DNA from: Squalus acanthias
Taxonomy: Eukaryota
Reading direction: 5' to 3'
Length of the DNA: 64,000 nt
Assembly: GCA_030390025.1 (NCBI GenBank)
Contig: CM059432.1
Location: 85,190,001 to 85,254,000 of the forward strand
A model generated the notes under the pieces. It was not told the origin of the DNA. It saw only the letters and a list, made by a program, of their open reading frames with translations, and searched no databases. This document shows, piece by piece, positions 1 to 40,789 of the stretch. The translations under genes and the position numbers were made by a program. Within the stretch, counting starts at the first letter, position 1; every line of letters starts with the position of its first letter.

Positions 1-1844
1 TGCTCCTCCGTAATGGGACCTCAGAGGCTGCAGCAAGACTGGTGGAAGGCTGCTGATTGTCAGAACCTGAGACTGCAGATGCCCTTGAAGGACGGCCTCG
101 ACCAGCTCTGGGCCTGGAGGGCCCGGCTGCAGACTGCACCAACTCTGCATGGGCGGCAGCAGTCTGTCCTACGGGCAGTGGCAAGTGCAGTGGAGAAGTG
201 ACAGTGGTGGCAGCAGGAATGCTGTCATCTTGAGAGAGGACAGCAACTCCCTGCTCGACCGACACACTGGCACTCCCACGGGGCAGCACTTCAGCATCCG
301 GAGCAATCTGCTGGAGCACAGATTGCTGGCCTGCTGCGGCGCGGTGACAGCCCCGGGGAAATGTGTACGAACCATCGAGGATGGCAGCAGTCAGTGCTCG
401 CGTGGCCTCAATCTGAGTCTGCATGAGAGCAGTCTGAGACTGAATTGCAGCACTAAGCTTTAGTGTGGCATCCGCCTGTGCTACAGCGAAGTGCTCCACA
501 CTCCTTGCCAGTGATTCAATGCATTCGGGCACCCTTCCCACTGCACCCATGAGCTCAGTGTGCATGTCCACCGCCTGGGTGTTCATTTCAGCAATGAGCC
601 GCTCCTCCTCTGCGTCCAGTGCAGCAGGAGTCGCTGGCATACTCTCCCTCCGGGGAGAAGGCCCCCGTTCTTCCCTACCCCCATGGCGTTGCTGCAGCCC
701 GCTGGGTCCTGGAGCTTCACCCTCATCAGACCCTTCCCCCCTGCTCCCCTCCAGGGAAGGCGTGTTCCCAGTGTGGGCATGGGCTTCCTCGGGAGAGAGT
801 GGCACTGATGCTCCACCTTCATCTTCCTCCTCGCCTGCAGCTTCACTCCCACTGGCAGCTTGAAGGCCCGTCTCCTCAGCTGGTGAATCACCATCTGAAA
901 GCAGGGAGGTACAAGAGTGGTTTTAGCGTGAGGACAGGGTGACAGTAAGGGAGGAATAAGTGCAGCGATTTAGTAAGTTGGATTGAAAGTGTCAAAGGCT
1001 GGTGTTGTGAGGGACAAGTGGAAGGACAGAGGACAAAAAGGTGCTGACCTTACCATTGCTGTCCAGAACGGGGTCGGCGTCTCCAGTGGCGACGGGACCG
1101 ATCACCCGGCTTGCCACAATCCTCTGGACGCGCGCCTCAAGATCGCTGAGGGGTTGCAGCTGAGGCCGCCCTCCACCCGTCCGTTGCTGCTGTCTCCTAT
1201 TATGAGATAGCTTGGCCTGCAAGAAAAAGGACGGCGTCTGAGTAAATATACAGCCATGGTCTTGCCTTATGTGCCTCCCATAGGTGAATAGCCCTACTGT
1301 ATGCAGCCATGGTCTTGCCTGATGTGCCTCCCATAGGTGAATAGCCCTTACTGTATGCAGCCATGGTCTTGCCTGATGTACCTCCCATAGGTGAATAGCC
1401 CTTACTGTATGCAGCCATGGTCTTGCCTGATGTGCCTCCCATAGGTGAATAGCCCTTACTGTATGCAAAGTGTGGAATGTGCGTGTGTGTTTCATGAGAG
1501 GGCCATAGGTGTTGGATGAGTGTTGTGCATTGGGGTTTTAAGACCCTCTGGCCATAGAGTGAGGTTGAGATGGAGGGATGGAGAGGTATTGAAAAAAAGC
1601 CACTCACCCTGACGATCCGAGTGAGGTCGTTGAATTTTTTTCGACATTGTACATGGGTCCTGGGCACCATGCTCCTGCAGGAGACGCTCTGAGCCACCTC
1701 CCTCCACACTCTTCTGTACTCGCGCGGCAAAGGCCTCCTGCCACTCTCAGGGAAGAGTATACATCTTCTGCGCTCCACCGCGCCAACCAGAGCATCCAAG
1801 GCCCGCTCGCTGAAGCGCTGAGCTCGTTCTCTCACCCTCTCCAT
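1..1844 (-). CDS. Harbinger Myb/SANT-like DNA-binding protein, spliced: exons 1844-1608, 1216-1054, 894-<1
   Basis: Exon 1 reads MERVRERAQRFSERALDALV...WREVAQSV...RTHVQCRKKFNDL (Myb/SANT, MSANTD-like). Splice sites are AGG|GTGAGT, TTGCAG|, G|GTAAG and TTTCAG|. Phases join, and exon 3 is open to the window edge by manual translation. Confidence 0.8.
1251..1465. repeat. Tandem repeat, 4 x ~54 bp, in intron 1 of the Myb gene
   Basis: Unit CAGCCATGGTCTTGCCTGATGTGCCTCCCATAGGTGAATAGCCCTTACTGTATG at 1251, 1304, 1358 and 1412. Confidence 0.95.
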
Positions 1845-2205: not shown

Positions 2206-5200
2206 AAAGAGTCATATAAAGTTGCCAGAAAAAGTAGCAAACCTGAGGATTGGGAGCAGTTTAGAGTTCAGCAAAAAAGGACCAAGAGATTGATTGAGAA
2301 GGGAAAAATAGAGTATGAGAGTAAACTTGCAAGGAACATAAAAGCGGACTGTAAAAGCTTCTACAAGTATGTCAAAAGAAAAAGATTAGTGAAGACAAAT
2401 ATAAGTCCCTTACAGTCAGAAATGAGAGAATTTATAATAGGGAACAAGAAAATGGCAGAGCAATTAAACAAATACTTTGGTTCTGTCTTCACAGAAGAGG
2501 ACACATATAACTTCCCAGAAATGCTAGGGAACCAAGGGTCTAGTGAGAAGGAGGAATTAAAGGAAATTAGTATTAGTAAAAAAATAGTGTTGGAGAAATT
2601 AATGGGACTGAAAGCCGATAAATCCCCAGGGCCTGATAATCTGCATCCCAGAGTACTAAAAGAGGTAGCCATGGAAATAGTGGATGCATTGGTTGTCATC
2701 TTCAAAATTCTATAGATTATGGAACAGTTCCTGCAGATTGGAGGATGGCAAATGTAACCCCGCTATTTAAAAAAGGAGGGAGAGAGAAAACAGGGAACTA
2801 CAGACCGGTTAGCCTAACATCAGTAGTAGGGAAATTGCTAGCGTCTATTATAAAGGATGTGATAACAGGACACTTAGAAAATATCAACAGGATTTGATAA
2901 AGTCAATATGGATTTATGAAAGGGAAATAGTGTATGACAAACTTGCTGGAGTTTTTTGAGGATGTAACTGGTACAATATAAAAGGGAGAACCAGTGGATG
3001 TGGTGTATTTGGATTTTCAGAAGGCCTTCGATAAAGTCCCACATAAGAGGTAAGTGTGCAAAATTAAAGCACATGGGATTGGGGGTAATATACTGGCATG
3101 GATTGAAACATAGAAGATAATAGCAGGAGTAGGCCATTCGGCCCCTCGAGCCTGTTCCGCCATTTAATGAGATCATGGCTGATCATCCAAATTTAGTACC
3201 CTGTCCCTGCTTTCTCCCCATATCCCTTGATCCCTTTAGCCTTAAGAAATATATCTAACTCCTTCTTGAATATATTTAATGAATTGGCCTCAACTGCCTT
3301 CTGTGGTAGAGAATTCCACAGGTTCACCACTCTCTGGGTGAAGAAATTCCTCCTCATCTCAGTCCTAAATGGCTTACCCCTTATCCTTAGACTGTGACCT
3401 CTGGTTCTGGACTCCCCCGCCATCGGGAACATCCTTCCTGCATCTAGTCTGTCTAGTCCTGTTAGAATTTTATAAGTTTCAATGAGATATCCTCTCATTC
3501 TTCGAAACTCTAGCGAATATAAGCCTAATCGACCCAATCTCTCTTCATACGTCATTCCTGCCATCCCAAGTATCAGTCTGGTAAATCTTCGCTGCACTCC
3601 CTCCATGGCAAGAACATCCTTCCTCAGATAAGGCGACCAAAAATGCACACAATACTCAAGGTGTGGTCTCACCAAGGCCTTGTACAACTGCAGCAAGACA
3701 TCCTTGCTCCTGTACTCGAATCCTCTCGTTATGAAGGCCAACATACCATTTGCCTTCTTAACCGTCTGCTGCACCTGCATGCTTACCTTCAGCGACTGGT
3801 GCACAAGGACTCCCAGATCTCGTTGCACTTCCCCAAGGAAATTCTCCTGAACACATGTCAGAAATTCCTCCCCCTCTTTTCCCTTTACCCTGGCATTGTC
3901 CTAATCGATATTTGGGTAATTAAAGTCCCACAATATCACCACTCTATAGCTCTTGCATATCTCTGCGATTTCCCTGCAGATTTGCTCCTCTACCTTCCTC
4001 TCACTATTTGGAGGCCCATAGAATACCCCCCAATAGCATAATCATACCCTTTTTGCTCCTCAACTCTAACCAAATGGATTCTGTCATTGTCCCCTCAAGA
4101 ACATCCTCTCTTTCCAACAGTACAATGTCTTCCTTAATGAGCACTGCCACCCCACCTCCCTTTTTTCCTTCCCTAACTTTAGCAGGGCCCTCATGTCGGC
4201 CAAGAGCATCTCAGCAGTCAGAGCAGGGATCTGAGCACACTGCCCCTGCCTCGGCTAAAGCCACAGGCGTGGCATCACCAGGAGCGATAGGAAAAAGAGT
4301 AAAGCTTTGTAATTGCACAAGGGTATGCACATGCATAGAAGCATAGAAGCATAGAAGATAGGAGCAGGAGTAGGCCATTCGGCCCCTCGAGCCTGCTCCG
4401 CCATTTAATGAGATCATGGCTGATCATCCAAATTCAGTACCCTGTCCCTGCTTTCTCCCCATATCCCTTGATCCCTTTAGCCTCAAGAAATATATCTATC
4501 TCCTTCTTGAATATATTTAATGAATTGGCCTCAACTGCCTTCTGTGATAGAGAATTCCACAGGTTCCCCACTCTGTGGGTGAAGAAATTCTTCCTCATCT
4601 CAGTCCTAAATGGCTTACCCCTTATCCTTAGACTGTGACCCCTGGTTCTGGACTCCCCCACCATCAGGAACATCCTTCCTGCATCTAGTCTGTCTAGTCC
4701 ATTTAGAATTTTATAAGTTTCAATGAGATTGGTTAACAGACAGGAAACTGAGAGTAGGAATAAATGTCTTTTTCGGGATGGCAGGCGGTGACTAGTGGGG
4801 TACCGCAGGGATCAGTGCTTGGGCCCCAGTTATTCACAATATATATCAATTATTTGGATGAGGGAACCAAATGTAATATTTCCAAGTTTGCTGATGACAC
4901 AAAACTAGGTGGGATTGTGAGTTGTGAGGAGGATGCAAAGAGGCTTCAAGGCGATTTAGACAAGTTGAGTGAGTGGGCAAATGCATGGCAGATGCAGTAT
5001 AACATGGATAAATGTGAAGTTATCCACTTCGGTAGGAAGAACAGAAAGGCAGAGTATTATTTAAATGGTGATAGATTGGGAAATGTTGATGTACAGAGGG
5101 ACTTGGGTGTCCTTGTACACCAGTCACTGAAAGCAAACATGCAGGCGCAGCAAGCAGTTAGGAAGGCAAATGGTATGTTGGCCTTCATTGCAAGAGGATT

Positions 5201-5822
5201 TGAGTACAGGAGCAAGGATGTCTTACTACAGTTATACAGGGCCATGGTGAGACCACACCTGGAGTACTGTGTGCAGTTTTGGTCTCCTTACCTAAGAAAG
5301 GATATACTTGCCATAGAGGGAGTGCAGCGAAGGTTCACCAGACTGATTCCTGGGATGGCAGGACTGTCGTATGAGGAGAGATTGGGTCGACTAGGCCTGT
5401 ATTCACTAGAGTTTAGAAGAATGAGAGGGGATCTCATTGAAACGTATAAAATTCTGACAGGGCTAGACAGACTGGATGCAGGGAGGATGTTTCCCCTGGC
5501 TGGGGGGTCTAGAACAAGGGGTCACAGTCTCAGGATACGGGGTAGGACATTTAGGACTGAGATGAGGAGAAATTTCTTCACTCAGAGGGTGGTGAACCTA
5601 TGGAATTCTCTACCACAGAAGGCTGTGGAGGCCAAGTCACTGAATATATTTAAGAAGGAGATAAATAGATTTCTAGACACAAAAGGCATCAAGGGGTATG
5701 GGGAGAGAGCGGGAATATGGTATTGAGATAGAGGATCAGCCATGTTCATATTGAATGGCAGAGCAAGCTCGAAGGGCCGAATGGCCTACTCCTGCTCCTA
5801 TTTTTCTATGTTTCTATGTTTC
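2206..5822 (+). mobile_element. 5'-truncated CR1 LINE (ORF2 RT region and 3' tail), split by an insertion at 3107-4730
   Basis: Motifs [33 protein letters not shown] and RTRGHSLRI; TTTCTATG tail near 5803-5820. The host reads GCATGGATTGA|GATTGGTTAAC across the insert. Confidence 0.9.
3107..4730 (-). mobile_element. Chimeric insertion of two CR1-derived segments (copy of ~38255-39322 plus inverted copy of ~33577-34130)
   Basis: Shares the nested CR1-in-CR1 junction (GCACTTCCCCAAGGAAATTCTCC) with ~38970 and the CR1-tail/Harbinger junction (TATGCATGTGCATACCCTTGTG) with ~33970. Confidence 0.85.
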
Positions 5823-7662
5823 AAAGATTCACAACCCTCCGAGTGAAGATATTTCTCCTCATCTCAGGCTGAAATGCCCTGCCCCTTACCTGCGACTATG
5901 CCCCCTAGTTCTCGACTCCCCAGCCAGGGGAAACAACCTCTCAGCATCTATCCTGTCAATCCCCTTCAGAATCTTATATGTTTCAATGAGATCACCTCTC
6001 ATCCTTCTAAACTTCAGAGAGTACAGGCCCAATCTATTCAATCTCTCATCATAGGACAACCCTTTCATCTCAGGAATCAATCTAGTGAACCTTTGTTGCA
6101 CTGCCTCTAAGGCAAGCATGTCCTTCTTCAGATAAGAAGACCAAAACTATGCACGGTCTTCCAGGTTTGGTCTCACCAAAGCCCTGTACAATTGTAGTAA
6201 GATTTCCTTACTCTTGTACTCTAGCCCCCTTGCAATAAAAGTCAACATGGCATTTGCCTTCCTAATTGCTTTCTGTACCTGCATGCTAACTCTCTGGGCA
6301 CGATTTTGTCATTGGGGTGGGCTGGGGTCGTGTCATCCGCTTTTTGTGTTAGCCACCCGACTCCAATTGGATGTGGGAGAATTATTCGATTTTCCCCTAA
6401 TTGGGCAATTGAGTTCCAGCATGTGGGAACCCATGACCCAATTAGTTTTTTCAGTCTGAAAGTCGCCTCTGATGATGTCATCATTGCTGCTGCATTTAAG
6501 GTCTGCAAAGACTGGGAAGCTTTTGGCCTTTGCTGTGAGAGGGACCTGGAGGCAAAATGAGCAGCAGGAGACCTAAGTCTGCTCCCAGATTTTTTTTGTA
6601 CCACCACCACCACCACTACTACTCCTCCAGGCTCCAAAGTTCCACAACAATGGTTATGACTGCTAAAAGTTCCCCCAGAATGATGATTGATCAAATCTCC
6701 TTCTTAATGGTGGACCTGCAGCTGATAGTCAGCAATCCAAGTGTGCTACCGCCAGGTTTCACCGTCGTGTTTCAGAGGAGGCGTACATCACGTCGGAAAA
6801 GTGTTAAAATCAGAAAGGCCTCTCAAAATGGGATTATAGAGGCAATTAAATGGTTGTTAAGGGCCTTAAGGGCCTATCCCGCCTCTTGCAGGCGAGACGG
6901 AGACGGGATCAGAAACCACGCATTTGGGAAAATTGCTCGGAGGCGGGATGGAGGCGGGGTCGGGCCCGCCCGCCATTTTTTGCAATTTTAACACCCCACA
7001 CAACTCCATTCCCGCCTCCTCGGGCCTGGCAAAATCGAGCCCTCTGTGTTTCCTGTACGAGGACACCTAAATCTCTCTGAACACCAACATTTTATAGTTT
7101 CTCACCATTTAAAAAATATTCCGTTTGTCTATTCTTCCTACCAAATTGAATAACCTCACATTTCCCCACATTATACTCCATCTGCCACCTTATTGCCCAC
7201 TTACTTAACCTGTCTATATCCTTTTGCAGGCTCTTTGAGTCCTCCTCACAGCCTACTTTCCCACCTAGCTTTGCATCATCAGCAAACTTGGATACATTAC
7301 ACTCGGTCCCTTCATCTAAGTCATTAATATAGATTGTAAATAGCTGAGGCCCAAGAACTGATCCTTGTGGTACCCCACTAGTTACAGCCTGCCAACCGGA
7401 AAATGACCTGTTTATCCCTACTCTCTGTTTTCTGTCCATTAACCAACCTTCTATCCATGGTAATATATTACCCCCAACCCCATGAGCCCTTATCTTGTGT
7501 AACAACCTTTTATGTGGCACCTTATCGAATGCCTTTTGGAAATCCAAATGTACTACATCCACTGGTTCCTCTTTAACTACCCTGCTAGTTACATCCTCAA
7601 AAAACTCTGTTAAATTTGTCAACCATGATTTCCCTTTCATAAAACCATGTTGACTCTGCCAA
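5823..7662 (-). mobile_element. CR1 LINE RT fragment interrupted by a MITE
   Basis: ORFs 7092-7673 (QHGFMKGKS...DFQKAFDKV...KFADD) and 5886-6119. Confidence 0.85.
6296..7042. mobile_element. Non-autonomous Harbinger element (MITE)
   Basis: TIRs GGGCACGATTTTG / CAAAATCGAGCCC with 3-bp TSD TCT; the host CR1 sequence rejoins cleanly. Confidence 0.85.
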
Positions 7663-11867: not shown

Positions 11868-13213
11868 AATAGGTGTTTCCTGTGCCCTCTGTTCAGAGGA
11901 CAGAAATCATGGGCAATTGGCCTATCCTTAGTGCAAGGGTTGAGGAACAGGAAGTGCGAAGGAAGGTGCAGAAGGAAGAAATGCAGTGCACCTCTGAACA
12001 CTTTTCCAGCCTAGCCAATCCCAGATTCACCAAATAAATTAGCAGAGGCTGAGCGGGAAATCCAGGCCATTAGTTTAAGCCTACTTCAGAAACAGGGAAA
12101 TTTGAGCAGTGGATATGCAAGTGTTTTCTGATGTGATACACCTAGAATCGCTCCTTCAAGTACAATGTCACTGTTGAACCATTCACGTTTGAAATCAATG
12201 CCTTTATTTTTCAAATGATTTATGAAGGTCACATTGTGATCCAGCATTTACAAGCTATAAAAGGAAAGTTATTTGTGATGCTGATGACTACCCTGAAAAG
12301 CAATAGCAGGTGTTAACAATTTTATTATTTCAGAGCTTGAAATCTGGATCAATACCAGAAGCAGCAATGAACACATGCACAGTCAGAAATAGCACGCAAG
12401 GAAATAGTAAACCAGCCTAGCAGCTGAACATTTTAACATTAATTGTTTTCCTTCCACTTTATTCAGTCCAATAATATAAATGTATAACCACATACCTCTA
12501 TTACTTTTATTGTAAAATGTTTTACACATTAATTCTAAAATACCACTACACTAAATATTACTCCTATAAAAATATTGAATATCTGAAGACATGCAAATTG
12601 ACAATTTGTTCAGTTTGTTGGATTCAGCAATACCAACTAATAAACTAGTCAAGGATTTGAAAATGTACTATTGAATCTGACCTATTTCACTGAGGAATAA
12701 TAATGTTAGTCTGATCCATGCCTGGGAAGAAGGCGTCAGATGGAAACCAGGAATTAAGTTCTTCATTTTAGGTACTATGGTCATTCACAACACTAATAAT
12801 GTTAAAAATGAGTAGCACCAGCAGGACTCTGTTTTGGCCTGTGCCCTCTTAAGTACCTTAAAGGTCCTAAATGTATTAATGTGCCTGAGTCAGAAGGTTG
12901 TGAGTTCAAGCCCTACCCCAGGAATTAAGCACATGATCTAGACTGATATTCAGTGCAGAACTGAGGAACTATTGCATTGTTCGAGATGTTGTGCTTCAGA
13001 AGAGATACTCGCCAAGACCTCCTACGTTCACCTCAATAAATATTGCTCTTCTCCTTCCTGACCTCACCACCATAACACTTTTTGATTGGCTCCCATTAAA
13101 TTGCAGCAAGTCAGAACGAAGGTCATCTGAATCAAAACGAAAGAAAAGAAAATGCCTGTAAAATTGCCGATGAGAAAATACTAAGGACTTACGAATGCAA
13201 CGAATGCTGAATA

Positions 13214-16200
13214 ATAAGAACATAACAAATAGGAGAAGGAGTAGGCCATTTGGCCCTTCGAGTCTGCTCCGCCATTCAGTAAGATTATGGCTAATCATCT
13301 ACTTTATCTCCACTTTCCTGAAATATCCCCATATCCCTTGATTACCTTAATATTCAAAAATCTATCAATCTCTGTCTTGAATATACTCAACGACTGAGCC
13401 TCCACAGCCCTCTAGGGCAGAGAATTCCAAAGATTCACAACCCTCTGAGTGAAGAAATTTCTCCTCATTTCAGTCCTAAATGGCCGGCCCCTTATTCTGA
13501 GACTGTGACCCCTGGTTCTAGACTCCCCAGCCAGGGGAAACATCCTCCCTGCATCTACCCTGTCAAGTCCTGTAAGAATTTTTTATGTTTCAATGAGATC
13601 ACCTCTCATTCTTCTAAACTCGAGAGAATATAGGCCTATTCTACTCAATCTCTCCTCATAGGACAATCCCCCCATCCCAGGAACAAGTCTGGTGAACCTT
13701 CATTGCACTCCCCCTATGGCAAGTATATTCTTCCTTAGGTAAGGAGACAAAAACTGTACACAATACTCCAGGTGTGGTCTCACCAGGGCCCTATATAATT
13801 GCAGGAAGACTTCTTTACTCTTATACTCAAATCCTCTTGTAATAAAGGCCAACATACCATTTGCTTTCCTAATTGCTTGCTGTACCTGCATGTTAACTTT
13901 CAGTGATTCGTGTACAAGGACACCCAGGTCCCTCTGAACACCAACATTTCCCAATCTCTCATCATTTAAAAAGTACTCTGCTTTTCTATTTTTCCTACCA
14001 AAGTGGATAACTTCACATTTCTCCACATTATATTCCATTTGCCAAGTTCTTGCCCACTCACTTAGCCTGTCTATATCCCCTTGAAGCCTCCTTGCATCCT
14101 CCTCACAACTTACATTCCCATCCAGCTTTGTAGCATCAGCAAACTTGGATATATTACATTTGGTCCCCTCATCCAAATAATTGATGTAGATTGTGAATAG
14201 CTGAGGCCCAAGCACTGATCCTTGCGGTACCCCACTAGTTACAGCCTGCCAACCCGAAAATGACCCGTTTATTCCTACTCTCTATTTTCTGTCCGTTAAC
14301 CAATCCTCAATCCATGCTAGTATATTACCCCCAATCCCATGAGCCCTAATTTTGTTTAATAACCTCTTGTGTGGCACCCTATCGAATGCCTTCTCAAAAT
14401 ACAAATGCACCACATCCACTGGTTCTCCCTTATCTATTCTGCTTGTTACAACCTCAGAAACCTCTAACAGATTTGTCAAACATGATTTCCTTTTCATAAA
14501 TCCGTGTTGAGTCTGCCCAATCCTATTATTATTTTCTAAGTGCCTTGTTACCGCGTCCTTAATAATAGATCCTAGCATTTTTCCTACTATTGATGGCAGG
14601 CTAACTAGTCTGTAGTTCCCCGTTTTCTCTCTCCCTCCTATCTTAAATAGTGGGGTTACATTTGCTACCTTCCAATCCGCGGGAACCGTTCTAGAATCTA
14701 TGGAATTTTGAAAAATTACAACCAATGCATCCACTATTTCTATAGCCACCTCTTTCAAAACCCTAGGATGTAGGCCATTAGGTCCAGGGGATTTATTGGC
14801 TTTCAGTCCTATTACTTTCTCCAGTACTATTTTTTTACTAATACTAATTTCTTTCAGTTCCTCATTCTCGCTAGACCCTTGGTTCTCCACTATTTCCGGG
14901 AAGTTGTTTGCGTCTTCTTCCGTGAAGACAGACACAAAAAAGTATTTGTTCAATTTCTCTGCCATTTTCTTATTCTCCATTATAATTTCTCCTGTCTCAG
15001 CCTGTAAGAGACCCACATTTACTTTTGTTAATCTTTTCCTTTTTACATACCTATAGAAGCTTTTACAGTCTGTTTTTATGTCTCTCGCTAGTTTACTCTT
15101 ATATTCTATTTTCCCTTTCTTTATCAATTTCTTGGTCCTCCTTTGCTGAATTCCAAAATCCTCCCAATCCCCAGGTTTGCTACTCTTTTTGGCAACATTA
15201 TAAGCCTCTTCCTTTGATCTAATACTATCTTTAACTTTTCTTGTTAGCCACGGTTGGACCACTTTTCCTATGGGGATTTTGTGCCTTAATGGAATGTCTA
15301 TTTGTTGCAAATTAAGTATTAATTCTTTAAATGCTCGCCATTGCTTGTCTATCATCATACCTTTTAAGGTAGTTTCCCAAGCTACCTTAGCCAACTTGCC
15401 CCTCATACCTATGTAGTTTGCTTTGTTTAGAATTAAGACCCTAGTTTCGGATTTAACTAAATCACTTTCAAACTCAATATAAAATTCTACCATATTGTGG
15501 TCACTCTTCCCTAAAGGCCCCTTTACTACAAGGTTATTAATTAACCCTTTCTCATTGCACAACACTAGATCTAAAATAGCCTGTTCGCTAGTTGGTTCCT
15601 CAACATATTGATCTAGAAAATTATCTTGCATACATTCCATGAATTCGCCCTTCACACTATTACTGCAAATTTGGTTTACCTAGTCTATACATAGATTAAA
15701 GTCCCCCATGATTACTGTATTACCCTTGTTACATGCGCCTCCACTTTCCTGATTTATACTCCGCCCTACATTACAACTACTGTTTGGGGGCCTATAAACA
15801 ACTCCCACCAATGTTTTCTGCCCCTTGCTGTTTCTTAGCTCCACCCAAACTGATTCTACTTCTTGATTTTCAGAGCTAAGATCCTTTCTCACTACTGTAT
15901 TTATCCCATCCTTTATTATCAAGGCTACCGCTCCTCCTTTTCCATTTTGCCTATCTCTTCTAAAAGTTAAGTATCCTGGATATTTAGTTCCCAACCTTGG
16001 CCACTTTGCAACCATGTCTCCGTTATGGCAATTAGATCAAACCTGTTAATTTCTATCTGAGCTATTAATTCATCTATTTTGTTGCGAATGCTTTGTGCTT
16101 TCAGATATAGTGCCTTTAGCTTTGACTTATTTCTATTTTTCCCTGATGTCACCTTAGTCACGGATGCCTTATTACCTTTGTTGCTCTCTCTGTCCCTTCC

Positions 16201-29410: not shown

Positions 29411-29629
29411 CCAGTGTCGGGAGCGGAGAGAGCAGCAGCACAGTGCGTAGTTAAACTCACTTTCGCGGGCTTTTTTGCAGAGGCCAGTGTCAGGAGTGGA
29501 GAGAGCAGCAGCACAGTGAGTATTTAAACTCACTTTCGCGGGCTTTTTTTCAGAGGCCAGTGGCGGGAGCGGAGAGAACAGCAGCACAGTGAGTAGTTAA
29601 ACTCACTTTCGCGGGCTTTTTTTCAGAGG
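29411..29629 (+). repeat. 3 x 73-bp tandem monomers at the CR1 5' end
   Basis: Units start at 29411, 29484 and 29557 (CCAGTGTCGGGAGCGGAGAG...TTTCGCGGGCTTTTTT.CAGAGG). Confidence 0.9.
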
Positions 29630-29938
29630 CTTACCAATCTCACAGACCGGCGGCGGCGTTCCAGAGCCACGTCACAATTCAAAAAGTGACGCGGACAAAA
29701 GGAAGCAGCTGATTGGGTGAGTACTGTCAGGTGAGTATTTATACTACTCTGTAGTTTGACAGGTAAGGTTAATAGTTTATAAAGTTTAGTAGGTCCTAAT
29801 TTTTGTGGTTATAGTTCCTAAGGTCTCTGTTGTGTAGCAGGGAGTGCTAGTATACAAGGGCCCTTGAGTATATCATTTAATTGTAGTGTAATTTGTGGTA
29901 TTGATTTGAGTTAATTTAAATTAATTAAAGGATAAGTC

Positions 29939-30889
29939 ATGGCAGCACAGCTCAGCCCCATGGCATGCTCCTCCTGCACTATGTGGGAAATCAGGGACAC
30001 TTCCTGTGTCCCTGTTGACCATGTGTGCGGGAAGTGTATCCAGCTGCAGCTACTGGCAGACCGCATTGCGGCGCTGGAGCTGCGAATGGATGCACACTGG
30101 AGCATTCGCGATGCTGAGGACATCGTGGATAGCACGTTTAGGGAGTTGGTCACACCGCAGGTAAAGGCTGCACAAGCAGGAAGGGAATGGGTGACCACCA
30201 GGCAGAGTAGTAGGCGCAGGCAGGTAGTGCAGGGATCCCCTGTGGACATCCCCCTCTCAAACAGATATACCACTTTGGATATTGTTGAGGGAGATGGCTT
30301 ATCGGGGGAAGGCAGCAGCAACCAACTTCCTGGCACCATGGGTGGTTCTGCTGCACAGGACGGGAGGAAAAAGAGCGGGAGAGCTATAATGATAGGGAAT
30401 TCTATTGTAAGGGGAATAGATAGGCGTTTCTGCGGCCGCAAACGAGACTCCAGGATGGTATGTTGCCTCCCTGGTGCAAGGGTCAAGGATATCTCGGAGC
30501 GGCTGCAGGGCATTCTGGAGGGGGAGAGTGAACAGCCAGTTGTCGTGGTGCATATAGGTACCAACGATATAGGTAAAAAATGGGATGAGGTCCTAAAAGC
30601 TGAATATAGGGTGTTAGGAGGTAAATTAAAAAATAGGACCTCAAAGGTAGTAATCTCAGGATTGCTACCGGTGCCACGTGCTAGTTAGAGTAGAAATAGA
30701 AGGATATTTCAGATGAATACATGGCTAGAGGAATGGTGCAAGGGGGAGGGATTCAAATTCCTGGGACATTGGAACTGGTTCTGGGGGAGGTGGGACCAGT
30801 ACAAACTGGACGGTTTGCACCTGGGCAGGACCGGGACCGATGTCCTAGGGGGAGTGTTTGCTAGTGCTGTTGGGGAGGGTTTAAACTAA
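29939..30889 (+). pseudogene. CR1 ORF1 (zinc finger/leucine zipper plus SGNH esterase), one premature stop at 30686-30688
   Basis: CSSCTMW...HVCGKC, IGNSIVRG and HIGTND; the frame resumes to DGLHL...VGEGLN* as in the intact paralog at 39652-40602. Confidence 0.9.
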
Positions 30890-33873
30890 AATGGCAGGGG
30901 GTTGGGAACCTGTGCAGGGAAACAGAGGAAAGGGAAGCAAGGATAGAAGCAAAAGACAGGAAGGAGAAAAGCAAAAGTGGAAGGCAGAGAAATCAAGGGT
31001 GTAAATCAAACAGGGCTACAGTAAATAATAATTCTAAAAGGACTAAGAGTGTTAAAAAAACAAGCCTGAAGGCTTTGTGTCTTAATGCGAGGAACATTCG
31101 TAATAAGGTGGATGAATTAGCTGCGCAAATAGATGTAAACGGATATGATATAATTGGGATTACGGAGACATGGCTCCAGGGTGACCAAGGCTGGGAATTC
31201 AACATCCAGGGGTATTCAATATTCAGGAAGGACAGACAAAAAGGAAAAGGAGGTGGGGTAGTATTGCTGGTTAAAGAGGAGATTAACACAATAGTAAGGC
31301 AGGATATTAGCTGTGATGATGTGGAATCTGTATGGGTAGAGCTGAGAAATACCAAGGGGCAGAAAACGTTAGTGGGAGTTCTATACAGACCCCCAAACAG
31401 TAATGCTGAGGTTGGGGATGGCATTAAACAGGAAATTAGAGATGCGTGCAATAAGGGCACAGCAGTTATCATGGGTGACTTTAATCTACATATAGATTGG
31501 GCTAACCAAATTAGTAACAATACTGTGGAGGAGGAATTCCTAGAGTGTATACGGGATGGTTTCCTGCACCAATATGTCGAGGAACCAACTAAAGATCAGG
31601 CCATCTTAGACTGGGTATTATGTAATGAGAAAGGATTCATTAGCAATCTTGTTGTGCGAGGCCCCTTGGGGAGGAGCGATCATAATATGATAGAATTCTT
31701 CATTAAGGTGGAGAGTGAAGTAGTTAACTCAGAGACTAGGGTCCTGAATTTAAATAAAGGAAACTACGATGGTATGAGGCGCGAGTTGGCTAGGGTGGAT
31801 TGGGGAGCATTACTTAAAGGGTTGACGGTGGATAGGCAATGGCAAACATTTAAAGATCGCATGGATGAACTACAGAATTTGTTCATCCCTGTTTGGCATA
31901 AAAATAAAAGAAAAAAGTTGACTCAACCGTGGCTAACAAGGGAAATTAGGGATAGCATAAGATCCAAGGAGAGGACATATAAATTGGCCAGAAAAAGCAG
32001 CAAACCTGAAGATTGGGAGCTGTTTAGGATTCAGCAAAGGAGGACAAAGGGATTAATTAAGAGGGGGAAAATAGAATATGAGAGTAAGCTTGCTGGGAAC
32101 ATAAAAACTGACTGTAAAAGCTTCTATAGATATGTGAAGAGAAAAAGATTGGTGAAGTCAAGAGTAGGTCCCTTGCAGTCAGAATCAGGGGAATTTATAA
32201 TGGGGAACAAAGAAATGGCTGATGAATTAAATACATACTTTGGTTCTGTCTTCACAAAGGAGGACACAAATAAACTCCCAGAGATGTCGGGGAATATAGG
32301 GTCTGATGAGAGGGAGGAATTGAATGAAATCAGTATTTGTAGGGAAATGGTGTTAGGGAAATTGACGGGATTGAAGGCCGATAAATCCCCAGGGCCTGAT
32401 AATCTACATCCTAGGGTACTTAAGGAAGTGGCCCTAGAAATAGTAGATGCATTGCTGGTCATCTTTCAAAATTCTATAGACTCTGGAACAGTTCCCATGG
32501 ATTGGAGGGTAGCTAATGTAACCCCACTATTTAAAAAAGGTGGTAGAGAAAAAATGGGGAATTATAGACCAGTAAGCCTGACATCAGTAGTGGGCAAAAT
32601 GCTAGAGTCCATTATAAAAGATGTAATAGCAGTGCACTTGGAAAACAGTGACAGGATCGGACAAAGTCAACATGGATTTACAAAAGGGAAATCATGCCTG
32701 ACTAATCTACTGGAATTTTTTGAGGATGTAACTGGTAGAATAGCTAAGGGAGAACCAGTGGATGTGGTGTATTTGAACTTTCAGAAGGCTTTCGATAAGG
32801 TCCCGCCTAAGAGATTAGCGTGCAAAGTTAAAGCACATGGGATTGGGGGTAAGGTACTGATTTGGATAGAGAACTGGTTGGCAGACAGGAAGCAAAGAGT
32901 TGCAATAAACGGGTCTTTTTCCGAGTGGCAGGCAGTGACTATTGGGGTACCACAGGGATCGGTGCTAGGACCCCAGCTATTCACAATATATATTAATGAT
33001 CTAGACGAGGGAACTAGATGTAATATCTCTAAGTTTGCAGACGACACAAAGCTGGGTGGGCGTGTGTGCTGTGAGGAGGATGCAGAGAAACTCCAGTATG
33101 ATTTGGACAGGTTGGGTGATTGGGCAGATGCATGGCAGATGCAGTATAATGTGGATAAATGCGAGGTTATCCACTTTGGTGGCAAAAACAGGAAGACAGA
33201 TTATTATCTGAACGGCAATAGATTGGGAAAAGGGGAAGTGCAACGAGATCTGGGAGTCCTTGTGCACCAGTCGCTGAAGGTAAGCATGCAGGTGCAGCAG
33301 GCGGTTAAGAAGGCAAATGGTATGTTGGCCTTCATAGCGAGAGGATTCGAGTACAGGAGCAAGAATGTCTTGCTGCAGTTGTACAGGGCCTTGGTGAGAC
33401 CACACCTTGAGTATTGTGTGCAGTTTTGGTCGCCTTATCTGAGGAAGGATGTTCTTGCCATGGAGGGAGTGCAGCGAAGATTTACCAGACTGATACCTGG
33501 GATGGCAGGAATGATGTATGAAGAGAGATTGGGTCGATTAGGCTTATATTCGCTAGAGTTTTGAAGAATGAGAGAGAATCTCATTGAAACTTATAAAATT
33601 CTAACAGGACTAGACAGACTAGATACAGGAAGGATGTTCCCAATGGCGGGGGAGTCCAGAACCAGAGGTCACAGTCTAAGGATAAGGGGTAAGCCATTTA
33701 GGACTGAGATGAGGAGGAATTTCTTCACCCAGAGAGTGCTGAACCTGTGGAATTCTCTACCACAGAAGGCAGTTGAGGCCAATTCATTAAATATATTCAA
33801 GAAGGAGATAGATATATTTCTTAAGGCTAAAGGGCTCAAGGGATATGGGGAGAAAGCAGGGACAGGGTACTGA
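30880..33873 (+). pseudogene. CR1 ORF2 (APE endonuclease plus reverse transcriptase), one premature stop at 33562-33564
   Basis: LNARNI, ITETWL, GDFN, SDHN, QGSVLGP and FADD. The frame is open from 30880 with no ATG until 31471. Confidence 0.92.
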
Positions 33874-34229
33874 AGTTGGATGATCAGCCATGATCTCATT
33901 AAATGGCGGAGCAGGCTCGAGGGGCCGAATGGCCTACTCCTGCTCCTATCTTCTATGCTTCTATGCTTCTATGCATGTGCATACCCTTGTGCAATTACAA
34001 AGCTTTACTCTTTTTCCTATCGCTCCTGGTGATGCAACGCCTGTGGCTTTAGCCGAGGCAGGGGCAGGCTGCTCAGATCCCTGCTCTGACTGCTGAGATG
34101 CTCTTGGCTGACATGACGGCCCTGCTAAAGACTGCTCCACCTTTACCTGTGCAGGGTATTCAGCAGAGAAGTATGTTGTGTACTGTCTGAGTAGGGGTGG
34201 GGGCAACGGGGCTCAGGAAACTGCCCAGT

Positions 34230-35017
34230 GAAATGAAGGCGAGATTGAGCTGCAGTTCAGGTGGGTATTTAACTTGTCATTGCCCCATCTGAATAAAAGT
34301 TCATTTATTACAGCTGGTGCCTCAGTTCTCTGTGGCAGACATTCGGCAGAGAGTTCTTGTGTTGATATAGCTTTTTCTAACTTTGGAGGCTTTCAAAGTG
34401 ACAAGATCAGGATGGGAGGCGCATTGGATGCATTTGACAGTACCTCAGAAGAGGAAGACCATCACCAGCCACGGCAGCGATGACATGCTGTGGTGGGATA
34501 AGTACGTGCACAGGAGGGAGGTGCACCGGAGAGAGGTGCACAGGAGGGAGGTGCACAGGAGGGAGGTGCACAGGAGAGAGGTGCACAGGAGGGAGGTGCA
34601 CCGGAGGGAGGTGCACAGGAGAGAGGTGCAAAGGAGAGAGGTGCACAGGAGGGAGGTGCACAGGAGGGAGGTGCACCGGAGAGAGGTGCACAGGAGGAAG
34701 GTGCACAGGAGGGAGGTGCACCGGAGAGAGGTGCAAAGGAGAGAGGTGCACAGGAGGGAGGTGCACAGGAGGGAGGTGCACAGGAGGGAGGTGCACCGGA
34801 GAGAGGTGCACAGGAGAGCGGTGCACAGGAGGGAGGTGCACAGGAGAGAGGTGCACAGGGGAGAGGTGCACAGGAGAGGAGCTGAAGTCGCAGGAGGCAC
34901 TATCCAAATAACAGTGCCTGCAGGCAGAAGCTCAGCTTCCTTAACCTCTCAGAAGAGCAGAGCTTCTGCAGGCTTAGGTTGTCACATCAGGTGGTGGCAG
35001 ACATCTGCAGACTCATA
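34230..35017 (+). mobile_element. Harbinger transposase 5' fragment
   Basis: [19 protein letters not shown]...RQKLSFLNLSEEQ...RLRLSHQVVADIC, homologous to ~27980-28200 and to the reverse complement of ~8750-9025. Confidence 0.7.
34506..34880. repeat. 15-bp minisatellite (GTGCACAGGAGRGAG), ~25 units
   Basis: Direct inspection; it explains the VHRRE, CTSLL and CTGGR ORFs. Confidence 0.95.
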
Positions 35018-35910: not shown

Positions 35911-36366
35911 TGAGTGTCTCCGCTTCCACCATTTCCGTCGGCAGTGAATTCCAGGTCCTTACCTCTCGTTGCGTAAAAAAGTTTTTCCCCACATCTCCCC
36001 TGTATCTCTTGCCCAAAACCTTATATCTGTGTCCCCTAGTCCTTGTACCATCAACTAGTGGGAACAGCCTTTCCCCATCTAGCCTATCCAAACCCGTCAT
36101 AATCTTGTATACCTCTATCAAATCACCCCTCAACCTCCTTTGCTCTAATGAAAACAAATCCAGCTTCTCCAACCTGTCCTTGTAGCTAAGATCCCCCATC
36201 CCCGGAACCATTTTGGTAAATCTCTCCTGCACCCTCTCAAGGGCCTTCACATCCTTCCTAAAGTGTGGTGACCAGAACTGGACGCAATACTCCAGTTGTG
36301 CCCTAACCAACGCTTTATAAAGGTTCAGCATAACTTCTCTACTTTTGTACTCAATATCTCTATCTA

Positions 36367-36481
36367 AGAATGTGATGCGGAGATTGTAACTTTACCTGAC
36401 GAAGGGGCGAAGGAGCTCCGAAAGCTTGTAATTTTAAATAAATCTGTTGGACTATAACCTGGTGTTGTGCGACTTCTCATT
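36367..36481 (+). mobile_element. 115-bp Penelope-type terminal insert
   Basis: 8-bp TSD TCTATCTA (36359-36366, 36482-36489); contains a hammerhead motif followed by AATAAA. Confidence 0.75.
36392..36431 (+). ncRNA. Minimal type I hammerhead ribozyme
   Basis: UUAC-CUGACGA-A-GGGGC-gaagga-GCUCC-GAAA-GC-UU-GUAA: core boxes, stem I UUAC/GUAA, stem II GGGGC/GCUCC, palindromic stem III AAGCUU. Confidence 0.75.
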
Positions 36482-38245
36482 TCTATCTATGAAGCCCAAG
36501 ATCCCATATGCTTTGCTAACTACTCTCTCAATATGTCCCGCTACCTTCAGGGACCTATGCACATTAACTCCCAGGTCCCTCTGTCCCTGCACACTCTTTA
36601 AAACTGTGCCATTAAGTGTATATTGCCTCTCCCTGTTCCTTCTGCCAAAATGCATCACCTCACACTTCTCTGTATTAAATTCCATCTGCCACTTGTCTGC
36701 CCATTCTGCTAGCCTTACTATGTCCTGTTGCAGTCGATTGGTATCATCCTCACTGTTTGCCACACCCCCAAGTTTGGTGTCATCAGCAAATTTAGAAATT
36801 CTACTCTGTATTCCAATATCCAGGTCATTTATATATATCAAAAAAAGCAGTGGCCCCAGCACTGACCCTTGGGGAACACCACTGTCTACCATCCTCCAGT
36901 CTGAAAAACAGCCATTTACCACAACTTGCTGTTTTCTGTCCTTAAGCCAATTCCTTATCAAAGCTGCCACTGACCCAACTATTCCATGAGCCTCAATTTT
37001 GTTAACCAGCCTTCTATGTGGTACTTTGTCAAACGCCTTCCTAAAATCCATGTAGACAACATCCATTGCATTCCCTTCATCAATCCTCTCTGTTACTTCA
37101 TCAAAAAATTTAATTAGTCAAACACAATCTGCCTTTTACAAATCTGTGTTGGCTCTCCTTAATTAGCTTAATCCTCTCGAAATGCAGGTTTATTTTTTCC
37201 TTGATTATTGTTTCTAAAATTTTACACACCACTAATGTTAAACTGACCGGCCTGTAGTTACTAGGATTGTCCTTACACCCTTTCTTGAACAATGATGTCA
37301 CATTTGCCACTTTCCAATCCTCAGGCACCTCCCCCACATCAAGGGAAGATTGGAAAATTATGGCAAGCCCTTCCGCTATCTCCTCCCCCAATTTCCTTAG
37401 CAATCTGGGATGCAAGCCATCTGGACCAGGCGACTTAGCCACTCTAAGCATACCCAGCCTTTCTAGTACATCCTGTCCATCAATTTTCACCCCTTCCAGT
37501 GCTTCTACCTTTTCCACTTCTACCGATATTTTGTCAGCATCCACCTCCTTAATAAACACCGATACAAAGTACTCATTGAGTATTCTAGCCTTACCCTGCG
37601 CCTCTAAGCATATATCATCTTCTTTGTCCCTAATAGGCCCCACCCTGCCTCTTACTACCCGCTTACTGTTTACAAGCCGGTAGAAGATTTCTGGGTTCCC
37701 TTTTTTGTTAACCGCCATTCTACTCTCATATTCTCTCTTTGCCAATCTTATTTTCATCTTCGCTTCCCCTCTCAACCTATTGTATTTGGTCTGGTTCTCT
37801 CTTGAAGAATTCATCTGACATGCATCATACACCCTCTTTTTTTGTTTCTCCATCTTCTCTTTCTCCCTCGTCATCCAAGGAGCCCTTGCTTTGTTTCCCT
37901 TACCCTTTCCTCTTGTTGGAATGTACCTAGCCTGTACTTGGAACATCTCCCTCTTAAAGATCACCCATTGTTCCGTTACAGTTTTTCCTGTCAGTCTTTG
38001 GTTCCATTTTACCTTAGCTAGATCCTTTCGCATCCCATCGAAGTTAGCCTTATTCCAGTTTAGAAGTTCCACTTTAGATTGTTCCTTGCTCCTCTCCATT
38101 GCTAATCTAAATCTTATGATACGATGATCACTCGTACCCAAGTGTTCTCCCACAGACACTTGGTCAACCTGGCCCATCTCATTCCCCAGCACCAAATCCA
38201 GCAATGCCTCCTTCCTAGTTAGACCAAGAACATATTGGTCAAGGA

Positions 38246-38976
38246 GCATAGAAGCATAGAAGATAGGAGCAGGAGTAGGCCATTCGGCCCCTCGAGCCTG
38301 CTCCACCATTTAATGAGATCATGGCTGATCATCCAAATTCAGTACCCTGTCCCTGCTTTCTCCCCATATCCCTTGATACCTTTAGTCTTAAGAAATATAT
38401 CTATCTCCTTCTTGAATATATTTAATGAATTGGCCTCAACTGCCTTCTGTGGTAGAGAATTCCACAGGTTCACCACTCTCTGGGTGAAGAAATTCCTCCT
38501 CATCTCAGTCCTAAATGGCTTACCCCTTATCCTTAGACTGTGACCTCTGATTCTGGACTCCCCCGCCATCGGGAACATCCTTCCTGCATCTAGTCTGTCT
38601 AGTCCTGCTAGAATTTTATAAGTTTCAATGAGATCCCCTCTCATTCTTCGAAACTCTAGCGAATATAAGCCTAATCGACCCAATCTCTCATACGTCATTC
38701 CTGCCATCCCAGGTATCAGTCTGGTAAATCTTCGCTGTACTCCTTCCATGGCAAGAACATCCTTCCTCAGATAAGGCGACCAAAACTGCGCACAATACTC
38801 AAGGTGTGGTCACACCAAGGCCTTGTACAACTGCAGCAAGACATCCTTGCTCCTGTACTCGAATCCTCTCGCTATGAAGGCCAACATGCCATTTGCCTTC
38901 TTAACCGCCTGCTGCACCTGCATGCTTACCTTCAGCGACTGGTGCACAAGGACTCCCAGATCTTGTTGCACTTCCC
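38246..38976 (-). mobile_element. 5'-truncated CR1 (same family as 29411-33974) nested in the second-family CR1
   Basis: TSD CAAGGA at 38240-38245 and 38977-38982; (CTTCTATG)n tail. Confidence 0.9.
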
Positions 38977-39651
38977 CAAGGAAATTCTCCTGAACACATG
39001 TCAGAAATTCCTCCCCTCTTTTCCCTTTACCCTGGCATTGTCCCAATCGATATTTGGGTAATTAAAGTCCCACAATATCACCGCTCTATAGCTCTTGCAT
39101 ATCTCTGCGATTTCCCTGCAGATTTGCTCCTCTACCTCCCTCTCACTATTTGGAGGCCCATAGAATACTCCCCAATAGCGTAATCATACCCTTTTTGCTC
39201 CTCAACTCTAACCAAATGGATTCTGTCCTTGTCCCCTCAAGAACTTCCTCCCTTTCCAAAAGTACAATGTCTTCCTTAATGAGCACTGCCACCCCACCTC
39301 CCTTTTTTCCTTCCCTAACTTTTCTGAACACCTTGTATCCTTGAATATTAAGTGCCCAGTTCTCACCAGTTTTAAGCCACATTTCCGTTATTGCCACAAC
39401 ATCATATTGCCACACAGCTAATTGTGCTTGTAGCTCACCAACCTTATTCACCACACTTTGTGCGTTTACGTACATGCATTCTAAACACTTTTTTGAATTT
39501 TTCGTAGTCTTTCTTAGTCTGCTCCTATCTGATATGGTACTACTACCGCCTCCAGTACTATCTTCTCTAGTATTATTCAACACACTCACTCTTTTATGCA
39601 CCTGATTCCTCTTTTCTATTCCTATATGCTGGTGCCCATCCCCCTGCCAAG

Positions 39652-40602
39652 CTAGTTTAAACCCTCCCCAACAGCACTAACAAACCTCCCCGTGAGAATA
39701 TTGGTCCCGGCTCTGTTGAGGTGTAACCCGTCCGGCTTGTACAGGTCCCACCTTCCCCAGAAATGGTCCCAATGCCTCAGGAATCTAAAGCCCTCCCTCC
39801 TGCACCATCTCTCCAGCCACGCATTCATCTGTTCTATCCTCCTATTTCTGTACTCACTATCACGTGGCACCGGGAGTAATCCGGAGATTACTACCTTTGA
39901 AGTCCTGCTTTTTAATCTCTCTCCTAGCTCCCTAAACTCTGCCTGCAGGACCTCATCCCTCTTTCTGCCAATGTCATTGGTACCGATATGGACAACGACC
40001 TCTGGCTGTTCACCCTCCCCCCTCAGAGTGTCCTGCAGCCGCTCAGTGACATCCTTGACCCTGGCACTAGGGAGGCAACATACCATCGTGGAGTCACGTC
40101 TGTGGCCGCAGAAACTCCTGTCTGCTCCCCTAACTATTGAATCCCCTACCACTATTGCTCTTGCACTCTTTTTCCTCCTCCCCTGTGCATCTGAGCCACC
40201 CGTGGTGCCGTGGTCTTGACTTTGGCTGCACTCTCCAGAGGAACCATCGCCCTCACCAGTACTCAGAACAGAATACTGGTTGGAGAGCGCGATGCACTCC
40301 AGGGACTCCTGCACTACCTGCCAGGTCCTCCTCTTCTGACTGGCGGTCACCCATTCCCCCTCTGCCTGCATACTTTTAAGCTGCGGGGTGACCACCTCTA
40401 GAAACGTGCTATCCACGTAACTCTCCACCTCGCAGATGCACCGCAGTGACTCCAGACGCCGCTCAAGCTCCGAAACCCGGAGCTCGTGTTGCAGTAGCTG
40501 GCAACACTTCCCGCACATGTGGTTATCCAGGCTACGTGAAGCGTCTAGGACTTCCCACATAGCACAGGATGTGCACTCCATGGAACTGAGCTGCCCTGCC
40601 AT
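39652..40602 (-). CDS. CR1 ORF1 protein (zinc finger/leucine zipper plus SGNH esterase), uninterrupted, 316 aa
   Basis: CTSCAMW..HMCGKC, VVGDSIVRG, HIGTND and DGLHLN. Confidence 0.85.
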   Translation of the reverse strand: MAGQLSSMECTSCAMWEVLDASRSLDNHMCGKCCQLLQHELRVSELERRLESLRCICEVESYVDSTFLEVVTPQLKSMQAEGEWVTASQKRRTWQVVQESLECIALSNQYSVLSTGEGDGSSGECSQSQDHGTTGGSDAQGRRKKSARAIVVGDSIVRGADRSFCGHRRDSTMVCCLPSARVKDVTERLQDTLRGEGEQPEVVVHIGTNDIGRKRDEVLQAEFRELGERLKSRTSKVVISGLLPVPRDSEYRNRRIEQMNAWLERWCRREGFRFLRHWDHFWGRWDLYKPDGLHLNRAGTNILTGRFVSAVGEGLN

Positions 40603-40789
40603 GCCTCTATTTAATAGACTAAGAACTAACCCAGCAGAAATAAACTTAAAACTTCACAAAAAACACTCCCCAGTTACTCACCAATCAGCTCCTTCCCTTG
40701 TGCCAATGTCACTTTTTTTACTCTGACGTCACTTTTTCAAAAACTGCCTCTGTTGAGTTGCTGCCACTCCTTTTAACTGCTCCACTCTC

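What the first reader, a model, noticed from the sequence alone, without database searches (positions are those of the whole stretch)
3107..4730. 1.6-kb insertion stitched from two loci 30-35 kb away by microhomology template switching
Seen: 3107-4180 copies ~38255-39322 including its CR1-in-CR1 junction. 4177-4730 is an inverted copy of ~33577-34130 including the CR1 tail and ~155 bp of its Harbinger flank. The two pieces overlap by AAAG (present in both donors), the right junction shares GATT with the host, the left end coincides with a LINE 3' tail, and the host CR1 shows no TSD. Inference: either RT switched between two read-through transcripts of convergent neighbouring LINEs (with 3' transduction) and inserted locally, or DNA-level template switching (MMBIR/FoSTeS-like) repaired a break.
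Basis: partly seen in the sequence, partly recalled or inferred. Interest (0 to 1): 0.7.

Follow-up and report, generated by a model that had tools for sequence, protein, structure and literature searches.

The report
Two-donor repair patch at shark LINE
A 1.6-kb insert in a dead jumping gene of a shark-type genome is stitched from two look-alike jumping-gene copies and their flanks 30-35 kb away, most likely because DNA repair copied one neighbour from each broken end; it is a real but single, probably functionless fossil of a known kind of mutation.

Summary
3108-4180 matches 38255-39322 (96.6%); 4177-4730 matches 33577-34130 inverted (96.4%); they overlap by CTTT. Both tracts carry junctions made when their donors inserted, and each copy has its own mutations, so this is no misassembly. 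Each tract starts in that shared sequence and runs out into donor flank; only the middle join is non-homologous. The left end is a CR1 tail. Copying followed the donors' own insertion closely (1 of 18 informative changes inherited). Best reading (0.5): a ~385-nt CR1 insertion broke during or soon after integration, each end invaded a nearby homologous copy, overshot, and the ends joined at CTTT. RNA template switching (0.2) and a one-ended serial switch (0.15) remain open. It is a two-ended variant of known chimeric L1 insertions and chimeric repair duplications. No genome was held, so junction copy number is untested. The scan noted other local CR1-linked copies in this genome (unchecked), none with this layout.

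The parts
2207..3106 (+). Host: left piece of an older 5'-truncated CR1 (ORF2 RT region)
   Evidence: 82% to 31976-32870 and to the reverse of 14307-15210; reads into the right piece as in uninterrupted paralogues
3107..3489 (-). R1: tail and last ~385 nt of the young CR1 subfamily (CR1y); left junction at the tail repeat with a GA(A) overlap to the target
   Evidence: 97.4% to both donors, 96.1% to R2; junction
3490..3834 (-). Rest of the CR1y piece of tract A, copied from the 38-kb element
   Evidence: shares one derived site (3680, K for R) with the 38-kb element only
3834..4180 (-). Copy of the 38-kb element's target-site repeat (CAAGGA) and 340 nt of the older CR1 (H38) into which it had inserted
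   Evidence: 10 differences from 38977-39322; 8 of 13 listed sites shared with that locus against the majority letter of laid contigs
4177..4180 (.). The one non-homologous join: CTTT, present in both donors
   Evidence: chance of 4 or more nt 1.8%
4181..4333 (-). Inverted copy of the Harbinger-derived 3' flank of the 33-kb element
   Evidence: 5 differences from the donor flank; flank colinear with a paralogue at 23650-23960
4334..4730 (-). R2: tail and last ~385 nt of CR1y; right junction looks like an ordinary 5' truncation with 3-4 nt overlap
   Evidence: 96.1% to both donors
4728..5823 (+). Host: right piece of the older CR1 down to its own tail
   Evidence: 85% to the reverse of 13208-14305; open frame 4764-5726
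29412..33975 (+). Donor D33: full-length CR1y element (5' tandem repeats, esterase-type ORF1, ORF2 with endonuclease and RT, one premature stop in each ORF)
   Evidence: Pfam RVT_1, Exo_endo_phos, weak Lipase_GDSL_2
33577..34130 (+). Tract of D33 and its flank that was copied as B
38246..38977 (-). Donor D38: 5'-truncated CR1y (about 730 nt) between two CAAGGA copies (38240-38245, 38977-38982)
   Evidence: family contigs read across the empty site (loose end at 3834)
38255..39322 (-). Tract of D38 and H38 that was copied as A
35911..40700 (-). H38: older CR1 that hosts D38; ORF1 39652-40653; its own 3' end is cut off at a MITE (left limit firm, right limit approximate)

Best explanation
The insert is a composite of two nearby young CR1 copies and their flanks, and it most likely arose when a short (~385-nt) CR1 insertion broke during or soon after its own integration and each end was repaired from a different homologous neighbour. 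Shown: structure, donors, junctions, timing bound. Inferred: target-primed reverse transcription began at 3107; the left end, carrying CR1 sequence, invaded D38 and copied 1.07 kb through D38's 5' junction to 39322; the right end, also carrying CR1 sequence (second strand or the other half of a finished insertion), invaded D33 and copied through its tail to 34130; both syntheses aborted and the two 3' tails were joined at CTTT by microhomology-mediated end joining. No function is implied.
For: (1) The ends of the insert are a direct repeat of the CR1y terminus; the only other window copies above 85% are the two donors. (2) Each tract begins in that homology and leaves it into donor flank; one join is non-homologous. 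A homology-blind second switch would run through a CR1y tail about 1-2% of the time (rough estimate). (3) The outer junctions are those of an ordinary truncated insertion: tail overlap, 3-4 nt 5' overlap, no duplication, as described for the L2-clade element ZfL2-2 (PMC2666801, passages). (4) Nearby donors are expected: proximity governed donor choice among yeast Ty repeats (PMC2996329, passages). (5) Precedent for each step: one-ended L1 capture of a homologous L1 plus flank 230 kb away (PMC8087252); two ends copying two templates and joining at microhomology (PMC2671141); aborted synthesis from both sides then end joining (PMC2895639). (6) Private changes lie in the outer halves of the repeats: 4 events in R1 and 9 in R2 with one inversion of order, 2 of 715 arrangements, p=0.003, the direction expected if the outer halves are an older insertion. 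(7) No T>C cluster in A (0 of 10 private columns) or A>G in R2 (0 of 10).
Against: The pattern in (6) was noticed after looking, and a rate model gives a Bayes factor of only 1.7-3.7; the total of 13 events is what equal age predicts (p=0.36). It supports only the 'finished insertion broke later' version, and that version needs the break within the first quarter of the donors' life (upper bound 24%). No crossover point can be placed, because the donors were almost identical then. B's matches to outgroup states (2 of 10) do not stand out from the other copies (5 of 44 overall), and 23 related proteins did not reveal a sister subfamily carrying B's or A's residues together. Two free ends with complementary CR1 sequence should usually re-anneal with each other (inference). 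Unchecked notes on this genome report local RNA-templated copies with CR1 tails, which raises the RNA rival.
Confidence: 0.5

Rival explanations
1. Reverse transcriptase switched RNA templates: it began at D38's tail on a minus-strand transcript from H38, copied to 39322, jumped at CTTT to a plus-strand D33 read-through transcript, copied 554 nt and joined the target.
For: Both pieces are co-oriented with CR1 sense and the insert ends at a tail. D33 and H38 both keep 5' ends and ORF1. Timing coincides with the subfamily's activity. Unchecked notes describe local copies with CR1 tails 45 and 51 kb away and many RNA-CR1 chimeras in this genome.
Against: Needs two convergent transcripts and integration within 35 kb of both. 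No poly(A) at the join; the first AATAAA is at 34292, beyond the switch point. No column in the shared 381 nt groups B with D33 against A and D38, though D33 differs from D38's lineage at 3680; this is weak. It leaves the outer-half bias unexplained.
Confidence: 0.2
2. One-ended serial copying: reverse transcription starts at 3107, the cDNA invades D38 by homology and runs to 39322, then switches by microhomology to the opposite strand 5.2 kb away (34130), copies 554 nt and returns to the target (MMBIR/FoSTeS-like second half).
For: The first half matches the published chimeric L1 type (PMC8087252; bioRxiv 10.1101/2024.08.27.596794). All three junctions have 2-4 nt overlaps. The donors are 4-5 kb apart.
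Against: That the second tract runs through the other CR1y tail is then a coincidence of about 2% (rough).
Confidence: 0.15
3. Twin-priming-like copying of one minus-strand RNA: both tracts are plus-strand syntheses on the minus strand, so one long transcript, folded back on the D33/D38 inverted repeat, could have served both target ends.
For: The geometry fits: left end extends 38255 to 39322, right end extends 33577 to 34130, both on the same template strand. D33 and D38 form a 739-nt, 96.5% inverted repeat 4.3 kb apart. H38 has lost its own 3' end, and a CpG-rich Kv2-gene promoter region lies 7 kb to the right.
Against: In L1 twin priming (passages) the tail primer sits at the RNA's 3' end; here the second site is 4.7 kb 3' of the tail. 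No A-to-I editing cluster, which was seen in inverted-Alu retrocopies (PMC11702581). No transcript was tested. Same-strand use has a 1 in 2 chance under the best model too.
Confidence: 0.08
4. The composite, or duplicated copies of the donors, exist elsewhere in the genome and the closeness is chance.
For: No genome was available to count junctions. A shares only 1 of 13 and B 0 of 5 informative donor changes, which a paralogous source would also give.
Against: Both internal junctions are one-off insertion scars with intact flanks at 33-39 kb. Laid contigs of both families continue with other letters at 3834 and at 4180 (loose ends). Tract A shares 8 of 13 listed flank sites with this H38 locus against the majority letter.
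Confidence: 0.06
5. Misassembly.
For: No listed contig bridged the CTTT junction, so there is no independent read support.
Against: All four CR1y copies carry their own substitutions at about 1.5% per lineage; an assembly error would copy a donor nearly exactly.
Confidence: 0.01

Closest known systems
Chimeric L1 insertion by TPRT plus SDSA-like capture (de novo CDKL5 insertion, PMC8087252, passages; it cites Gilbert et al. 2005, which I did not read)
   Same: Starts at a LINE 3' end, continues in a homologous endogenous LINE on the same chromosome and runs out into that element's flank.
   Different: One captured donor there, two here, one per end; there a 119-bp TSD and poly(A), here no TSD and a repeat tail; CR1 in a shark germ line.
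Chimeric repair-mediated duplications (Pace et al. 2009, PMC2671141, passages)
   Same: Insert inside a TE made of two donors joined at a short microhomology; explained by both 3' ends invading different templates.
   Different: Their proximal cases average 162 bp (max 619) with a donor within 5 kb, and their pipeline excluded duplicated repeats. Here 1.6 kb, donors 29-35 kb away, entered through ~385 nt of LINE homology, with a retrotransposition end.
L1 templated insertions and twin priming (bioRxiv 10.1101/2024.08.27.596794; PMC11702581; passages)
   Same: Genomic sequence copied into a LINE insertion during integration.
   Different: Typically under 250 bp and within 15 bp of the site; here over 500 bp each from 30 kb or more.
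SDSA plus end joining at P-element gaps in Drosophila (PMC2895639, passages)
   Same: Incomplete synthesis from one or both ends, then polymerase-theta-dependent joining.
   Different: Template is the sister chromatid, not two ectopic repeats.

Membership tests
Chimeric LINE insertion (TPRT + SDSA-like) | One end is the element's 3' terminus joined to the target | tested here: met
   tail repeat at 3107 with GA(A) overlap
Chimeric LINE insertion (TPRT + SDSA-like) | Continues in a nearby homologous element and into its flank | tested here: met
   tract A through the D38/H38 junction to 39322
Chimeric LINE insertion (TPRT + SDSA-like) | 3' part comes from a source other than the captured element | tested here: inconclusive
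   no crossover point can be placed
Chimeric LINE insertion (TPRT + SDSA-like) | Target-site duplication | tested here: not met
   none; CR1y gives 6 nt at D38 and about 2 nt or an imperfect repeat at D33, so absence is weak
Chimeric LINE insertion (TPRT + SDSA-like) | A single captured donor | tested here: not met
   two donors
Chimeric repair-mediated duplication | Two donors joined at microhomology inside an interrupted TE | tested here: met
   CTTT join, 1.8% by chance
Chimeric repair-mediated duplication | At least one donor within 5 kb of the acceptor | tested here: not met
   29-35 kb
Chimeric repair-mediated duplication | No retrotransposition hallmark at the ends | tested here: not met
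   left end is a CR1 tail
Chimeric repair-mediated duplication | Empty orthologous site in a relative | tested here: inconclusive
   joints across the site in all 4 runs cannot be told from paralogues
RT template-switch chimera with 3' transduction | Pieces co-oriented with their RNAs and ending at a 3' tail | tested here: met
RT template-switch chimera with 3' transduction | Switch at an RNA 3' end or poly(A) (feature recalled) | tested here: not met
   no poly(A) at the join; first AATAAA at 34292
RT template-switch chimera with 3' transduction | Both donor transcripts exist | not tested
Twin priming | Both target ends copy the same template strand | tested here: met
Twin priming | Tail primer at the RNA 3' end, second primer 5' of it | tested here: not met
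   order reversed by 4.7 kb (coordinates; definition)
MMBIR/FoSTeS from a naive break | Microhomology at each junction (feature recalled) | tested here: met
   2-3, 4 and 3-4 nt
MMBIR/FoSTeS from a naive break | Landing points independent of element termini (my inference) | tested here: not met
   left end at the CR1 terminus, about 0.04% by chance

The most novel reading that the evidence does not exclude
A CR1 reverse transcriptase worked at the locus on one long nascent minus-strand RNA folded back on the D33/D38 inverted repeat, priming one target end at an internal tail and the other on the displaced antisense arm: a hairpin-guided, reversed twin priming that copies two stretches 4 kb apart into a site 30 kb downstream.
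Probability: 0.08. Interest if true: 0.65.

Novelty: new variant of a known kind. Interest (0 to 1): 0.3.

Why it matters
It shows how, in a genome packed with near-identical LINEs, one insertion can pull in unrelated flanking DNA from two neighbours. Such products look like 3' transduction or RNA template switching and could be misread as those. The terminal direct repeat with two local donors is a searchable signature, so the DNA-versus-RNA question can be tested genome-wide. This instance moved only repeat DNA, lies 43 kb upstream of the nearest coding exon found, and has no sign of function.

Tried and rejected
Whole-genome junction count: no genome held. Exact 30-nt CR1y pattern in metagenome and viral contigs: 0 hits each. 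Run search: 20 runs listed, best share 0.66; 4 were laid, and it is not shown that any is the window's species. In one search none of the 32 listed pieces bridged the CTTT junction, and summed depth at 4238-4283 was 0-12 in the 4 runs against 100,000 or more in CR1 parts. That is what a low-copy flank would give, but the tool warns that holes prove nothing and contigs drop rare variants, so I do not count it. One search listed only 4 variant rows and missed B's private sites, so it could not polarise them. Site 3191/4432 (A, B and D38 agree, D33 matches two outgroups) looked like evidence that B is not from D33; rejected as near-uninformative because 5 of 44 single-copy columns match two or more outgroups. 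Protein search for a sister subfamily (80 hits, best 83-89%; 23 aligned): B's and A's residues appear singly in relatives, as do D38's; inconclusive. Idea that D33 was the source of D38: not supported, since D33 keeps R where D38 and A have K. Idea that the region is an intron: 99 repeat-poor frames scanned in Pfam gave one host exon, at 47.5-48.1 kb on the + strand, to the right of the donors; exons under 75 codons were not scanned. Look-alike search among earlier findings for 3700-4400: none. Paper searches listed no two-ended, LINE-homology-guided case; the library lacks most subscription papers, and I opened no supplements (the bioRxiv paper's supplementary figure on templated insertions could bear on this).

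Full report
Setting. The window is repeat-rich. No whole genome was held. One host coding exon was found among 99 repeat-poor frames, the first coding exon of a Kv2-type potassium channel at 47493-48071 on the + strand, so the insert and both donors lie upstream of it.

Observation. Tract A (3108-4180) matches 38255-39322 at 96.6% and tract B (4177-4730) matches 33577-34130 inverted at 96.4%. They overlap by CTTT, found in both donors; 4 or more nt occur in 1.8% of random joins. The host is an older CR1 (2207-5823). Against five uninterrupted paralogues its site has no duplication and at most about one changed base. Nine of the 15 joints shown (1026 not shown) read straight across this site; they may all be paralogues.

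The donors are the local elements. D38 is a 730-nt truncated young CR1 (CR1y) between two CAAGGA copies inside the older CR1 H38; family contigs continue across that empty site (loose end at 3834). D33 is a full-length CR1y with ORF1 and an 899-codon ORF2 frame holding endonuclease and RT domains, inserted in a Harbinger-derived sequence whose two flanks line up with a paralogue. Both junctions were therefore made by single insertions, and the insert carries one of each. Of 13 sites in the H38-derived part listed (40 of 196 rows shown), 8 have the same letter in tract A and in H38 against the majority of laid contigs, and 5 are private to A. The majority letter mixes subfamilies at 90% likeness, so some of the 8 may be subfamily traits. 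All four CR1y copies have their own changes at about 1.5% per lineage, which rules out misassembly.

Timing. In the 381 columns common to all four copies no column splits two against two. D38 has 12 private events inside A's span and D33 has 5 inside B's span; none was inherited. One site (3680) is shared by A and D38 against D33, the three window outgroups and most related proteins. With 1 of 18 inherited, the copy was made within the first 24% of the donors' life (95% bound). One contig of a related organism covers 4209-4333, has D33's letter at 4271 and goes on with unlike letters exactly where the tail would start (record 17); it may be D33's empty orthologous site or a close paralogue.

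The insert begins and ends with the same ~385 nt of CR1y (96.1%), and the only other window copies above 85% are D33 and D38. Read inward from each target end, both tracts start in this homology and leave it into donor flank. Without the interior, what remains is an ordinary truncated insertion with a tail overlap, a 3-4 nt 5' overlap and no duplication, the junction types reported for ZfL2-2 (PMC2666801; PMC4245944; passages). That last point holds under the RNA model too, so it does not discriminate.

Mechanism. The left end at an element terminus (about 0.04% by chance) means reverse transcription started the event (inference). I favour DNA repair for the rest (0.5): two ends carrying CR1y sequence invaded the two nearest near-identical copies, overshot, and were joined at CTTT. 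This predicts the donor family, the locality and the single non-homologous join. Each step has precedent, read as passages: one-ended capture of a homologous L1 and its flank (PMC8087252; 10.1101/2024.08.27.596794), two-template repair duplications (PMC2671141), aborted synthesis with end joining (PMC2895639), and proximity-driven donor choice (PMC2996329). One sequence hint agrees: R1's 4 private events lie toward the left target end and R2's 9 toward the right (p=0.003; five control orderings among other pairs gave 0.06-0.58, and two more 0.18 and 1.0 are). The hint is weak: it was seen after looking, the Bayes factor is 1.7-3.7, and the total count fits equal age.

Rivals. RNA template switching (0.2) fits orientation and timing, and unchecked notes report local CR1-tailed copies elsewhere in this genome. 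It needs two convergent nascent RNAs and a local target, and the join shows no RNA end. A one-ended serial switch (0.15) needs a roughly 2% coincidence. A single minus-strand RNA primed twice (0.08) fits the strand geometry and the D33/D38 inverted repeat but reverses the order of twin priming and left no editing marks. Donor copies elsewhere (0.06) cannot be excluded without the genome.

Comparison and novelty. It works like a chimeric L1 insertion with SDSA-like capture at one end and like a chimeric repair-mediated duplication in the middle. It fails defining features of each (single donor and TSD; donor within 5 kb and no retrotransposition end), so I file it as a variant, not a member. 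Seven paper searches listed no case with both ends guided by LINE homology; I saw listings only, except PMC2895639 and PMC8087252. PMC13343379 (passages) gives CR1-group elements 22-34% of elasmobranch genomes, so such substrates are common.

Verdict. Real, well resolved, single and apparently functionless; mechanism probable, not proven. Interest 0.3.

Noticed in passing
window 47493-48071 (+): First coding exon of a Kv2-family potassium channel gene with a GT donor at 48072 and a CpG-rich region at about 46500-48500. Best PDB match is KCNB1; from recall the N-terminus looks more like KCNB2, not tested.
   Followed up: partly
window 29412-33975 (+): D33 is a full-length, lightly decayed CR1 with ~70-nt tandem repeats at its 5' end, one premature stop in ORF1 and one near the end of ORF2.
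   Followed up: partly
window 35014-35910 and 55726-56621: Two ~900-nt MITE-like elements with terminal inverted repeats, 95.6% identical, in opposite orientation; partial relatives at 1818-2205 and 63832-64000. The 35-kb copy has unrelated flanks (Harbinger on the left, H38 ORF2 on the right), so H38's 3' end was lost there.
   Followed up: partly
window 5819-6294: An antisense CR1 fragment of another subfamily abuts the host element's tail with no spacer.
   Followed up: no
window 34506-34884: Tandem array of 15-nt units inside a Harbinger transposase 5' region.
   Followed up: no
window 1247-1467: Four tandem copies of a ~54-nt unit.
   Followed up: no
window 4484: B's C at 4484 is rare among contigs laid from organism A (93-96% T) but T is about 1% in organisms G and H, suggesting different dominant CR1 subfamilies; the split of contigs between R1 and R2 confounds this.
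   Followed up: no
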